Shown here piece by piece: positions 62,828-64,000 of a DNA stretch of 64,000 bases (position 1 is its first letter; every line of letters begins with the position of its first letter). Made by a program: the position numbers and the translations under genes. A model generated the notes under the pieces. That model was not told where the DNA came from, searched no databases, and worked only from the letters and a program-made list of their open reading frames with translations. Origin of the DNA: Candidatus Aldehydirespiratoraceae bacterium (GTDB taxonomy: Bacteria > Actinomycetota > Acidimicrobiia > Acidimicrobiales > Aldehydirespiratoraceae); contig CBDHCN010000002.1 in the NCBI GenBank assembly GCA_965261185.1, positions 2,878,093-2,942,092 of the forward strand. Reading direction: 5' to 3'.

Positions 62828-64000
62828 GTGCTGAACGGTTCGGTTTTGGCCGAGCGGACTCTGCGGGTCCGCTGGTTGGGACGGGTTGCTTATTCAGATG
62901 CGCTCGCGTTGCAACGGTCGTTGTTCGTCAATCGCCAACACGACTATCTGCTGTTGTTGGAGCATCGCAATGTAGTGACCATGAGTCGCCGCACGCCGGC
63001 TGAGCATCTGCTTGCCGACGTTGAGGCGCTCGGTGCGGAGTTGTTTGTAGCGGATCGGGGAGGCGACGTTACCTACCACGGCCCCGGTCAACTTGTTGCT
63101 TATCCCATTGTTGATGTGCCGGGGCGCCGCGGCGGCGGTATGGCCGACACCGCCGCGTATGTGTCATCGCTTGAACAGTGTTTGATTGAAACCCTCGGAG
63201 ATGTTGGTGTGCAGTCGGGGCGTATCAAAGGCTGTACCGGCGTCTGGGTGGATCCCACCGGAGAACGGCCCCAGAAGATAGCGGCAATCGGGGTGCGGAT
63301 AGCGCGGGGACGCTCCATGCATGGGGTGGCGCTCAACGTTGACCCGGATTTGAGCTGGTATGAGCGAATCGTTCCGTGTGGCATTCCCGACAAGGGTGTC
63401 ACCTCGCTGGCCGCGCTCGGTGTTGACGTTTCGATGCCTGAGATGGTCGAGGTGTTCACGCAACGGGCGGTGGCTGTGTTCGCTCAACACGGATCAGTTG
63501 ACCGCGCCGGCGTTGGGTTCAAGACCAAACCCGCTGACTTTGCGCCGTTCACTCGTGGAGAAGGCCCAGGCACACCGGTTGGGCGTTCTGGAGTCGGTTA
63601 CCAATCTGAGGATCCGACCCCGGCAATCACTGGACAAGCGTCCTCACCGCAGGAATTTGCGAGACAGGCTGATGGCACGTCGGTGCGGTTGCTTGGACGC
63701 CTTGCTCAAGCGGGGGCCACCAGTCACGACCCCGTGCGCTTGCGCGCGCGCAAGCCTGAGTGGATGCGGGTGAAGTTCGATCCTGGACCGCAGTATCGCC
63801 GGATCAGGTCCACGATGCGTGAACTCGGACTCGTGACCGTGTGCGAAGAAGCGGGTTGCCCCAATATTTCCGAGTGCTGGAACGACGGCACGGCGACCTT
63901 CATGATCCTGGGGGACCGTTGCACACGAGCTTGTGGGTTCTGCTTGATCGACACCCGGCATCCCGAGGCGCCGGATCCTCATGAGGCGACCCGTGTGGCT
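62828..64000 (+). CDS. lipB-lipA: lipoyl(octanoyl) transferase LipB and lipoyl synthase LipA in one continuous reading frame (3' end outside window)
   Basis: By manual translation, no stop occurs from 62828 to the window end. The LipB part has [57 protein letters not shown] and [12 protein letters not shown]. After a ~70-aa linker the LipA part follows ([10 protein letters not shown]...[17 protein letters not shown]...[17 protein letters not shown]). The ORF is absent from the track because it has no stop in the window. Confidence 0.8.
   Translation, partial: [391 protein letters not shown]

What the first reader, a model, noticed from the sequence alone, without database searches (positions are those of the whole stretch)
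62828..64000. lipB and lipA lie in a single uninterrupted reading frame (natural LipB-LipA fusion?)
**Seen in the sequence.**
- I translated 62828 to the window end codon by codon, and no stop codon occurs.
- A complete LipB-like domain (…[19 protein letters not shown]…[22 protein letters not shown]…[12 protein letters not shown]…AVAVFAQHG) is followed by a ~70-aa Gly/Pro-rich linker.
- The linker runs into the LipA N-terminus (…[67 protein letters not shown]…).
- The ORF is missing from the supplied track because it has no stop inside the window.
- An internal GTG at 63683 could also give a separate LipA.

**Established knowledge.** lipB and lipA are normally adjacent but separate genes (e.g. 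in mycobacteria), and they act consecutively on the same lipoyl domain.

**Inference.** A covalent octanoyl-transferase/lipoyl-synthase fusion would channel the pathway next to its E2 substrate gene.
Basis: partly seen in the sequence, partly recalled or inferred. Interest (0 to 1): 0.55.

Follow-up and report, generated by a model that had tools for sequence, protein, structure and literature searches.

The report
Natural LipB–LipA fusion enzyme gene
In this Acidimicrobiia bacterium the two enzymes that build the lipoic acid cofactor, octanoyltransferase LipB and lipoyl synthase LipA, are encoded as one conserved 598-residue protein right after their substrate gene; the fusion is real and widespread in this class, but databases label it only "lipoyl synthase".

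Summary
Window 62828-64000 (+) is one stop-free frame of 391 codons: a complete LipB, an ~80-aa spacer, and the N-terminal part of LipA, cut off by the window end.

It is not an assembly artefact:
- Three independent 98-99% identical assemblies show only substitutions across the linker and continue to a 598-aa protein.
- All 360 listed 90%-identity clusters from three searches are fused.
- All 18 Acidimicrobiia loci I tested hold both domains in a single ORF.

Evidence that both halves work:
- All catalytic residues of both halves are invariant in 120/120 homologs.
- Part of the linker is under purifying selection as strong as the catalytic cores (dN/dS 0.11).
- AlphaFold gives pTM 0.87-0.88 for two family members, which suggests a fixed inter-domain arrangement.

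The same architecture arose independently in a Planctomycetaceae MAG and a gammaproteobacterial MAG. Reversed LipA-LipB proteins also exist.

Nine literature searches found no description of this fusion, and every source names it only "lipoyl synthase". NCBIfam's one curated fusion model (LplA-LipA) is not matched as a whole.

Verdict: a real, conserved but uncharacterised bifunctional enzyme. It is a new variant of a known kind and moderately interesting. Substrate hand-off between the domains is inferred, not shown.

The parts
62828..64000 (+). 5' 1173 nt (codons 1-391 of 598) of the fused lipB-lipA gene. It runs off the window end. The most likely start is GTG 62828, with TTG 62825 as the alternative.
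   Evidence: No stop in frame. It is 99% identical to the 598-aa protein P0001, differing at 3 of 391 positions apart from the start residue. The gene continues to a stop in L001:8001-9797.
62849..63496 (+). LipB octanoyltransferase domain (aa 8-223). The catalytic Lys150 codon is at 63275-63277 and the Cys184 codon at 63377-63379.
   Evidence: NCBIfam NF010925 scores 190 bits against a cutoff of 155. K150 and C184 are invariant in 120/120 homologs. The fold matches LipB structures 2qhs (TMt 0.87) and 1w66 (TMt 0.82). dN/dS is 0.155.
63500..63604 (+). Conserved part of the linker (aa 225-259). It holds a short beta-strand (DRAGV) followed by the motif D-[LF][15 protein letters not shown].
   Evidence: Many columns are 70-100% conserved across 120 homologs. 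dN/dS is 0.11. AF2 predicts a strand at aa 224-228 and then low confidence. The motif occurs only in the Acidimicrobiia fused family.
63605..63661 (+). Hypervariable, disordered spacer (aa 260-278).
   Evidence: These columns are 37-79% gaps. The whole aa 225-278 linker ranges from 17 to 94 aa among homologs. dN/dS is 0.45. pLDDT is below 50 for aa 247-271. In relatives it expands by in-frame 15-nt tandem repeats; the window has none.
63662..63748 (+). LipA N-terminal extension (aa 279-307, [16 protein letters not shown]...VRLRA). It contains the in-frame GTG at 63683.
   Evidence: This is the most constrained segment (dN/dS 0.04-0.08), and AF2 predicts helices at 274-280 and 286-294. From my recollection of the M. 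tuberculosis LipA sequence, it corresponds to that protein's N-terminal ~22 residues before ERKPPW; the HMMER alignment to 5exi begins at query aa 307. The GTG is not conserved as a start codon.
63749..64000 (+). Start of the LipA radical-SAM core (aa 308-391). Auxiliary-cluster Cys339, Cys344 and Cys350 lie within 63842-63877. Radical-SAM Cys365, Cys369 and Cys372 lie within 63920-63943.
   Evidence: TIGR00510 and LIAS_N hits. All six Cys are invariant in 120/120 homologs. Mtb LipA 5exi matches at 2e-87. The fold matches 5exk with TMt 0.91.
61326..62819 (+). Upstream E2 dihydrolipoyl acyltransferase gene with one lipoyl domain. This domain is the substrate of both halves of the fusion. Its stop codon is TGA 62817-62819, 8 nt before the fusion start.
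   Evidence: Pfam finds Biotin_lipoyl at aa 4-76, E3_binding, and 2-oxoacid_dh. The gene order is the same in L001.
62800..62811 (+). Shine-Dalgarno-like GGGAGGCGGAGG inside the 3' end of the E2 gene, 13-16 nt upstream of the candidate start codons. Translation may be coupled to E2.
   Evidence: Read directly from the sequence, and conserved in L001-L007. The spacing is longer than optimal, so the exact start is not settled.
59829..61259 (+). E3 dihydrolipoamide dehydrogenase gene, on the same strand and upstream of E2.
   Evidence: Pfam finds Pyr_redox_2 and Pyr_redox_dim.
53904..56621 (-). E1 (AceE-type) 2-oxoacid dehydrogenase component, included as locus context.
   Evidence: Pfam finds PDH_E1_M and Transketolase_C_1.

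Best explanation
**What it is.** The window ends inside a single gene for a bifunctional LipB-LipA protein (598 aa, 64.7 kDa). The organism is a Candidatus Aldehydirespiratoraceae bacterium (Acidimicrobiales). The gene lies directly downstream of the E3 and E2 genes of a 2-oxoacid dehydrogenase.

**How it most likely works.**
1. The N-terminal LipB domain takes the octanoyl group from octanoyl-ACP onto Cys184, with Lys150 as its partner.
2. It passes the octanoyl group to the lipoyl-lysine of E2 (and presumably GcvH).
3. The C-terminal LipA domain, a radical-SAM enzyme with a sacrificial auxiliary [4Fe-4S] cluster, inserts sulfur at C6 and C8 of that protein-bound octanoyl group.

**What the fusion provides.** It fixes 1:1 stoichiometry and holds the second active site next to the first, so the octanoylated lipoyl domain can be handed over without diffusing away.

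**History.** The fusion arose once early in the class Acidimicrobiia. The original junction was short. In the branch containing this window the spacer later gained a conserved short motif and a disordered, repeat-prone segment.

**Shown versus inferred.**
- Shown: the single conserved ORF, intact catalytic residues, selection on the linker, and monophyly of the Acidimicrobiia fusion.
- Inferred: the enzymatic activities (from family membership), a compact two-domain architecture (from pTM only), and substrate hand-off.
For: **One ORF, and a genuine one**
- 391 codons with no stop.
- No indel in 63440-63760 in three other assemblies at 98-99% identity.
- The full gene is L001:8001-9797, 598 aa.
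- 18 of 18 Acidimicrobiia loci hold LipB and LipA in one stop-free ORF.
- 120/120 listed clusters are fused in each of three searches.

**Both halves functional**
- P0001 passes the curated equivalog cutoffs for lipA (376 vs 310) and LipB (190.5 vs 155; 139 vs 83.6).
- LipB K150 and C184, and the LipA CX4CX5C and CX3CX2C cysteines, are invariant in 120/120 homologs. RSSY is essentially invariant: R 120/120, both Ser 119/120, Tyr 116/120.
- dN/dS is 0.155 for LipB and 0.11 for LipA.
- Folds match Mtb LipA (TMt 0.91) and LipB structures (TMt 0.82-0.87).

**Linker is translated and selected**
- dN/dS is 0.11 for aa 225-259 and 0.04-0.08 for aa 279-307.

**No conserved internal start**.

**Defined inter-domain geometry is suggested**
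- pTM is 0.88 for P0001 and 0.87 for the short-linker relative P0302. Only the variable spacer is disordered.

**Single origin in Acidimicrobiia**
- The clade is monophyletic in both the LipA and LipB neighbour-joining trees.

**Context**
- The E2 gene with one lipoyl domain ends 8 nt upstream.
- The window has no second LipB or LipA.
Against: - No protein-level evidence exists: no proteomics, activity assay or complementation.
- The window holds only 391 of the 598 codons. The rest is inferred from 98-99% identical contigs.
- Inter-domain packing rests on pTM alone. I had no PAE or coordinates.
- The exact start codon is uncertain. The SD spacing is long, and L005 has CTG at the homologous position.
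- Channelling is an inference. LipA turnover is limited by auxiliary-cluster repair, so proximity may give little kinetic benefit.
- I could not check whether the genome also carries a stand-alone lipB, lipM or lplA elsewhere.
- All family members found are from MAGs or metagenomes. No cultured strain was identified.
Confidence: 0.85

Rival explanations
1. One ORF but two proteins. The fused frame is real, but free LipA (and LipB) are produced either by internal initiation near GTG 63683 or by proteolytic cleavage in the disordered spacer. On this reading the fusion serves only co-expression.
For: - An in-frame GTG sits at codon 286, about where a canonical actinobacterial LipA would start (the Mtb LipA N-terminus is from my recollection of its sequence).
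- Residues 247-271 are predicted disordered and so could be accessible to proteases.
- The gammaproteobacterial fusion L039 keeps an internal Met in its junction.
Against: - The homologous codon is GTC or GTT in L004, L006, L007, L010 and L014, and no SD-like motif lies upstream in any locus.
- The residue is not Val in 40 of 120 homologs.
- The linker-less relatives L015, L016 and L018 leave no room for a cleavable spacer yet keep the fusion.
- Strong purifying selection on the linker (dN/dS 0.11) and pTM 0.87-0.88 argue that the covalent link is used.
Confidence: 0.1
2. Sequencing or assembly artefact. A lost stop codon or a frameshift in a low-coverage long-read assembly merged two adjacent genes.
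For: - The near-identical contig L001 is labelled 6x coverage and carries an apparently split peptidase gene just downstream.
- P0095 has an out-of-frame C-terminus compared with P0104.
- In many bacteria lipB and lipA lie in the same frame with one stop between them, so a single error could fake a fusion.
Against: - Four independent assemblies agree with no indel across the linker.
- All 360 listed clusters and all 18 Acidimicrobiia species-representative loci are fused, down to about 50% identity.
- The linker shows codon-level purifying selection in this frame.
Confidence: 0.01
3. Degenerate LipB. The N-terminal domain is a catalytically dead, LipB-derived lipoyl-domain-binding or regulatory module of LipA. 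Octanoyl transfer would then be done by another enzyme (LipM or LplA) encoded elsewhere.
For: - All databases name the protein only 'lipoyl synthase'.
- I could not examine the rest of the genome for other transferases.
Against: - The Cys/Lys catalytic dyad and the RGG-x-T-x-HGPGQ motif are retained. K150, C184 and the core motif residues are invariant in the alignments.
- The domain passes two curated LipB equivalog cutoffs.
- Its dN/dS of 0.155 is like that of an active enzyme.
- Its fold matches LipB structures with TMt 0.82-0.87.
Confidence: 0.03

Closest known systems
Stand-alone LipB and LipA of the canonical de novo lipoylation pathway (e.g. M. tuberculosis LipB 1w66 and LipA 5exi/5exj/5exk; E. 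coli LipB/LipA)
   Same: - Same two families, folds and catalytic residues. LipA is 49-51% identical to Mtb LipA with TMt 0.91. LipB is 42% identical to 1w66 with TMt 0.82.
- From my own knowledge of mycobacterial genomes, the E2-lipB-lipA gene order is also the same.
   Different: - Here the two enzymes form one polypeptide, joined by a spacer of 17-94 aa.
- The stop codon of lipB and the start codon of lipA are both absent.
NCBIfam NF053790 'LplA_LipA_fuse', bifunctional lipoate-protein ligase/lipoyl synthase (606 aa)
   Same: - The N-terminal half belongs to the lipoate/octanoate-attaching superfamily and is fused to a C-terminal LipA.
- The overall length is similar.
- It shows that attachment-enzyme-LipA fusions are already recognised by curators.
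   Different: - P0001 matches only the LipA half of the model (positions 330-605) and scores 337 bits against a cutoff of 800.
- The N-terminal half here is a LipB-type, ACP-dependent octanoyltransferase, not an ATP-dependent LplA ligase.
- It therefore belongs to a different pathway: de novo synthesis rather than salvage.
Independent LipB-LipA fusions (Planctomycetaceae MAG L035, gammaproteobacterial MAG L039) and reversed LipA-LipB proteins (P0142, P0144, P0166, P0169, P0171, P0180, P0217)
   Same: - Same two domains in one ORF.
- P0142 and P0144 pass both the LipA and LipB cutoffs.
   Different: - Different origins. L035 and L039 branch among unfused relatives in both trees.
- Their junctions are unrelated and lack the FTRGEG motif.
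- The domain order is reversed in seven representatives.
- Several are single-MAG observations that could be errors.
Fused lipoate-protein ligases Lpl(AB) and circularly permuted Lpl(BA) of Actinomycetota (Tanabe et al. 2023, PMC10332631)
   Same: They are precedents that the lipoate-assembly machinery evolves by gene fusion, including within Actinomycetota.
   Different: - Those fusions join a catalytic domain to its accessory domain within one enzyme.
- The present case joins two consecutive enzymes of the pathway.
- That survey does not mention a LipB-LipA fusion.

Membership tests
LipB octanoyltransferase (NCBIfam NF010925 / TIGR00214; Pfam PF21948) | Whole-protein HMM score above the curated equivalog cutoff | tested here: met
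   For the window protein, NF010925 scores 190.4 against 155 and TIGR00214 scores 138 against 83.55. P0001 gives the same result.
LipB octanoyltransferase (NCBIfam NF010925 / TIGR00214; Pfam PF21948) | Catalytic Cys/Lys dyad (Mtb C176/K142; E. coli C169/K135; numbering from my own knowledge) | tested here: met
   K150 (KIAAIG) and C184 (PCGI) are present in the window and invariant in 120/120 homologs.
LipB octanoyltransferase (NCBIfam NF010925 / TIGR00214; Pfam PF21948) | LipB fold without the LplA accessory domain | tested here: met
   Foldseek gives TMt 0.87 for 2qhs and 0.82 for 1w66. Full LplA ligases that carry the accessory domain reach only about 0.46-0.58.
LipB octanoyltransferase (NCBIfam NF010925 / TIGR00214; Pfam PF21948) | Octanoyl-ACP:protein N-octanoyltransferase activity | not testable with these tools
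   This needs an enzyme assay or complementation of a lipB mutant.
LipA lipoyl synthase (TIGR00510; Pfam PF16881 + PF04055) | Whole-protein HMM score above the equivalog cutoff | tested here: met
   The truncated window fragment scores only 115 against 310. The 99% identical full-length P0001 scores 376.4 against 310.25.
LipA lipoyl synthase (TIGR00510; Pfam PF16881 + PF04055) | Radical-SAM CX3CX2C motif and N-terminal auxiliary-cluster CX4CX5C motif | tested here: met
   [12 protein letters not shown] and CTRACGFC are present in the window. All six Cys are invariant in 120/120 homologs.
LipA lipoyl synthase (TIGR00510; Pfam PF16881 + PF04055) | C-terminal RSSY motif (serine ligand of the auxiliary cluster) | tested here: met
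   The motif lies beyond the window end. It is present at aa 574-577 of P0001 and in L001-L003, and the serine is kept in 119/120 homologs.
LipA lipoyl synthase (TIGR00510; Pfam PF16881 + PF04055) | Sulfur insertion into octanoyl-lysine | not testable with these tools
   This needs an anaerobic in vitro assay or complementation of a lipA mutant.
NCBIfam NF053790 LplA_LipA_fuse (bifunctional lipoate-protein ligase/lipoyl synthase) | Whole-protein score of at least 800 bits, matching both halves of the 606-position model | tested here: not met
   P0001 scores 336.8 bits and matches only model positions 330-605, the LipA half. It is not a member of this family.
Acidimicrobiia LipB-LipA fusion family (defined here) | LipB and LipA in one stop-free ORF in that order, forming a monophyletic group in both domain trees | tested here: met
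   The window clusters with L001-L018, all of which are fused. The clade is monophyletic in the LipA and LipB neighbour-joining trees.
Acidimicrobiia LipB-LipA fusion family (defined here) | Existence of the full-length polypeptide in cells | not testable with these tools
   No proteomic data were available.

The most novel reading that the evidence does not exclude
The fusion may be more than a co-expression device. It could be a compact, co-evolved two-active-site machine that handles one lipoyl domain processively (octanoylation, then double sulfuration) without releasing it. On this reading the conserved linker motif ([17 protein letters not shown]), which sits in an otherwise disordered spacer, is a docking peptide. 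It would tether the enzyme to a partner such as the E2/PDH core, ACP, or an Fe-S carrier that rebuilds the sacrificial auxiliary cluster. That would make this protein a natural model for how LipB and LipA cooperate on their protein-bound substrate.
Probability: 0.2. Interest if true: 0.6.

Novelty: new variant of a known kind. Interest (0 to 1): 0.4.

Why it matters
1. **Annotation.** Every source calls these proteins just 'lipoyl synthase'. LipB therefore looks absent from Acidimicrobiia genomes, a class that includes abundant freshwater, marine and soil lineages. Automated metabolic reconstructions could wrongly infer lipoate auxotrophy or a missing octanoyltransferase.
2. **Mechanism.** How the octanoylated lipoyl domain passes from LipB to LipA is not structurally defined. 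A natural covalent LipB-LipA with a predicted fixed domain arrangement is a convenient object for cryo-EM, crystallography and kinetic tests of hand-off.
3. **Evolution.** The same fusion arose at least three times, and the reverse order also exists. Many bacteria keep lipB and lipA in frame with one stop between them. This makes it a clean example of recurrent fusion of consecutive pathway enzymes.

None of this overturns current understanding of lipoate biosynthesis.

Tried and rejected
- **Literature.** Nine full-text searches and three papers read (PMC3904984, PMC10332631, PMC3917532) gave no description of a LipB-LipA fusion protein. In those texts 'LipB-LipA' means the pathway or operon.
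- **Hassan & Cronan.** A look-up by PubMed id for their work on LipA/LipB co-purifying with dehydrogenase complexes failed because the paper is not held. I do not rely on it.
- **Cross-phylum tblastn matches.** Matches spanning both domains in Xanthomonadales, Porticoccaceae and others looked like fusions. They turned out to be two separate ORFs and were rejected as fusions.
- **Taxon assignment of fused representatives.** Assigning the 50%-identity fused representatives by best BLAST hit is biased towards fused references. I use it only as a rough grouping.
- **Linker similarity.** The linker against all window ORFs gave no meaningful match; the best E-value was 0.002, in a low-complexity stretch.
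- **Tandem repeats.** None were found in the window's own linker, although relatives have them.
- **Cultured carriers.** Two extra homolog searches returned only MAG or metagenome proteins.
- **Inter-domain interface.** I could not inspect PAE or coordinates, so the interface remains an inference from pTM.
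Full report
**1. The observation**

Window 62828-64000 on the + strand translates into 391 codons without a stop. The other two forward frames are full of stops. The region is about 61% G+C, and by my own arithmetic a chance open frame of this length has a probability of roughly 5e-6.

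Pfam places a lipoyl ligase A/B catalytic domain at aa 22-212 and the lipoyl-synthase N-terminal domain at aa 306-344. NCBIfam places a LipB equivalog at aa 8-223 (190 bits, cutoff 155) and lipA models from aa 306 to the window end. The ORF is missing from mechanical ORF lists because it runs off the window.

**2. Not an artefact**

The closest database protein, P0001, is 99% identical and 598 aa long. Apart from the start residue it differs from the window at 3 of 391 positions. It carries LplA-B_cat, LIAS_N and Radical_SAM. Its contig (L001) shows the whole gene with a stop codon.

A scan of species-representative genomes identifies the organism as a Candidatus Aldehydirespiratoraceae bacterium (Acidimicrobiales), with 98% identical loci L002 and L003. 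Aligning window 63440-63760 with L001, L002 and L003 shows 99% identity. There are substitutions only and no indel.

I then tested every fetched locus for a single stop-free ORF containing both domains. All 18 Acidimicrobiia loci (L001-L018) pass: Aldehydirespiratoraceae, Acidimicrobiaceae, Ilumatobacteraceae and unclassified MAGs. Gaiellaceae, Solirubrobacterales and most proteobacteria have two ORFs. Three homolog searches, seeded from three branches of the family, each listed 120 clusters, and all 360 were fused. Some clusters have 400-500 member sequences.

**3. Anatomy** (P0001 numbering, identical to window codon numbering)

| Segment | Residues | Properties |
|---|---|---|
| LipB core | 8-223 | catalytic domain |
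| Conserved linker element | 225-259 | many columns 70-100% conserved: D225, A227, V229, R232, then [17 protein letters not shown] |
| Hypervariable zone | 260-278 | rich in indels |
| LipA N-terminal extension | 279-307 | highly conserved ([12 protein letters not shown]...VRLRA) |
| LipA core | 308 onward | radical-SAM domain |

The aa 225-278 linker ranges from 17 to 94 aa across homologs, with a median of 41.

- In some relatives the linker is expanded by peptide repeats, for example GQALS x9 in P0004.
- At the DNA level L006 has a 15-nt unit repeated about 10 times, so it expanded by in-frame slippage. The window has no such repeat.
- More distant Acidimicrobiia have a short junction: DLSRFSRGEGPGEPVRLLGRL in L010-L013.
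- L015, L016 and L018 have almost no linker.

**4. Selection and catalytic integrity**

Nei-Gojobori dN/dS over close pairs:

| Region | dN/dS |
|---|---|
| LipB core | 0.155 |
| Conserved linker element | 0.114 |
| Variable spacer | 0.454 |
| LipA N-terminal extension | 0.042 |
| LipA core | 0.110 |

The linker is therefore translated in this frame, and most of it is as constrained as the enzymes themselves.

The following are invariant in 120/120 fused homologs:
- LipB Lys150 and Cys184;
- LipA auxiliary-cluster Cys339, Cys344 and Cys350;
- LipA radical-SAM Cys365, Cys369 and Cys372.

The C-terminal RSSY motif is essentially invariant as well: R 120/120, both Ser 119/120, Tyr 116/120.

Full-length P0001 passes the curated equivalog cutoffs of both lipA (376 vs 310) and LipB (190.5 vs 155; 139 vs 83.6). 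By sequence it matches Mtb LipA at 2e-87 and Mtb LipB at 3e-38.

**5. The internal start hypothesis**

The in-frame GTG at 63683 is codon 286. In related loci the homologous codon is GTC (L004, L006, L007, L014) or GTT (L010). No Shine-Dalgarno-like sequence precedes it anywhere. Among 120 homologs the residue is Val in 80, Leu in 24, Pro in 11 and something else in 5. A separate LipA start is therefore not a conserved feature. Occasional internal initiation or proteolysis in this organism cannot be excluded by computation.

**6. Gene start and context**

The E2 gene (61326-62819; one lipoyl domain at aa 4-76, an E3-binding domain and a catalytic domain) ends with TGA at 62817-62819. E3 lies upstream on the same strand, and an AceE-type E1 lies on the opposite strand.

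The fusion starts at GTG 62828 or TTG 62825, 5-8 nt after the E2 stop. A conserved GGGAGGCGGAGG sits 13-16 nt upstream, inside the E2 3' end. That spacing is long, and L005 has CTG at both candidate positions, so the exact start is not settled. Translational coupling to E2 is plausible. The window contains no other LipB or LipA homolog.

**7. Structure**

AlphaFold2 on P0001 with 101 aligned homologs gave mean pLDDT 84.2 and pTM 0.88. Within the linker only residues 247-271 fall below pLDDT 50; the other low-confidence segments are the two termini and residues 366-368. Residues 224-228 form a strand. A second model, of the short-linker relative P0302 from a different alignment, gave pLDDT 84.0 and pTM 0.87.

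pTM is normalised over the whole chain. Two domains of about 220 and 290 residues with undefined relative orientation could not reach such values. The models therefore imply a defined LipB/LipA arrangement. This is an inference, because I had no PAE or coordinates.

Foldseek against the PDB matches the C-terminal half to M. tuberculosis LipA (5exk, TMt 0.91). It matches the N-terminal half to LipB structures (2qhs TMt 0.87; 1w66 TMt 0.82). No solved structure covers both halves; the best query-normalised TM-score is 0.47.

**8. Wider distribution and origin**

An exhaustive search of 1.84 billion 50%-identity representatives returned 22,866 hits. Among the top 150, about 81 have the order LipB then LipA, 7 have the reverse order LipA then LipB, and 57 are plain LipA.

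In neighbour-joining trees of the separated domains the Acidimicrobiia fusions are monophyletic. The fused Planctomycetaceae MAG (L035) and the fused gammaproteobacterial MAG (L039) branch among unfused relatives; L039's sisters L050 and L054 are unfused. Their junctions are unrelated to the Acidimicrobiia linker. So there were at least three independent LipB-LipA fusions, plus the reversed ones. Some of the non-Acidimicrobiia cases rest on single MAGs and could be errors.

A possible reason for the recurrence: in 21 of 36 unfused adjacent loci, lipB and lipA are in the same frame and separated by exactly one stop codon. One substitution would fuse them, and the natural LipA N-terminal extension would serve as the linker. 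These 21 loci are phylogenetically related, so the count is not a statistical test.

**9. How it most likely works**

By family membership, the N-terminal domain transfers octanoate from octanoyl-ACP, through a Cys184 thioester, to the lipoyl-lysine of E2 and other lipoyl proteins. The C-terminal domain then inserts two sulfur atoms, using two SAM molecules and its auxiliary cluster.

The fusion gives obligatory 1:1 expression. If the predicted compact arrangement is right, it also places the second active site next to the first, so the roughly 80-residue lipoyl domain can be re-bound without diffusing away. The conserved FTRGEG motif lies in a low-confidence region and is unexplained. It could be a docking peptide for a partner. 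Both the activities and the hand-off are inferred.

**10. Comparison with what is known**

Textbook systems have separate LipB and LipA. NCBIfam curates one attachment-enzyme-LipA fusion, NF053790 (LplA_LipA_fuse). The present protein matches only its LipA half, with 337 bits against a cutoff of 800, so it is not a member. Its N-terminal half is an ACP-dependent LipB rather than an ATP-dependent ligase.

The 2023 survey of prokaryotic lipoate assembly discusses LplA/LplB fusions but not a LipB-LipA fusion. Nine full-text searches found no description of one. All sources name these proteins 'lipoyl synthase' or 'lipoic acid synthetase'. The sequences, with precomputed Pfam architectures, are nevertheless plentiful in public databases. 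The architecture is uncharacterised rather than unseen.

**11. Verdict**

This is a natural, conserved LipB-LipA fusion, typical of the class Acidimicrobiia.

- I rate it a new variant of a known kind, with moderate interest (0.4).
- It does not change the chemistry or logic of lipoate synthesis.
- It corrects a systematic annotation gap.
- It documents recurrent fusion of consecutive enzymes.
- It offers a natural construct for studying LipB-to-LipA substrate hand-off.

Noticed in passing
L019, L021-L033, L036-L038, L040-L042, L057 (e.g. L021 3920-4639 | 4643-5671): In 21 of 36 unfused adjacent lipB-lipA loci (Xanthomonadales, Porticoccaceae, Alcanivorax, Legionellales and others) the two genes lie in the same reading frame, separated by exactly one stop codon. 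Roughly 30-70 codons of LipA N-terminal extension follow the stop. One substitution or read-through event would create a fusion. The loci are related to one another, so this is not a statistical test.
   Followed up: partly
P0142, P0144, P0166, P0169, P0171, P0180, P0217: These are reversed-order LipA-LipB fusion proteins of about 470-540 aa. P0142 and P0144 pass the curated cutoffs of both families. Their organisms and genomic context are unknown.
   Followed up: partly
window 63536-63577 (aa 237-250): A conserved short motif, D-[LF][12 protein letters not shown], sits inside a linker that AlphaFold models with low confidence. It is under purifying selection and found only in the fused Acidimicrobiia family. 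Its function is unknown; it may be a docking peptide.
   Followed up: partly
L006 1915-2065; also the linkers of P0004, P0017 and P0023: The linker is expanded by an in-frame 15-nt tandem repeat of about 10 copies. P0004 has GQALS x9, and P0017 and P0023 have other Gly/Ser/Leu-rich repeats. Linker length therefore evolves by replication slippage.
   Followed up: yes
L001 9882-10136 and 10120-10956 (just beyond the window's 3' end in the near-identical contig): An Xaa-Pro peptidase appears split into an 84-aa Creatinase_N call and an overlapping 278-aa Peptidase_M24 call.
   Followed up: no
L005, about 4001 (homologous to window 62825-62830): L005 has CTG CTG where the window has TTG GTG. No canonical start codon exists at the expected start of the fused gene. 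The corresponding database protein, P0026, is called 48 aa shorter, which would truncate LipB. The true start in that genome may lie upstream, overlapping E2, or may be non-canonical.
   Followed up: no
P0095 versus P0104: P0095 (508 aa) is nearly identical to P0104 (577 aa) up to about residue 410. It then continues in an Arg/Pro/Gly-rich out-of-frame tail. This is a likely frameshift error in that metagenome contig.
   Followed up: no
window 62800-62819: The E2 C-terminal codons (DWEAEVR*) contain a conserved GGGAGGCGGAGG. Together with the 5-8 nt gap to the fusion start, this suggests translational coupling of E2 and LipB-LipA.
   Followed up: partly
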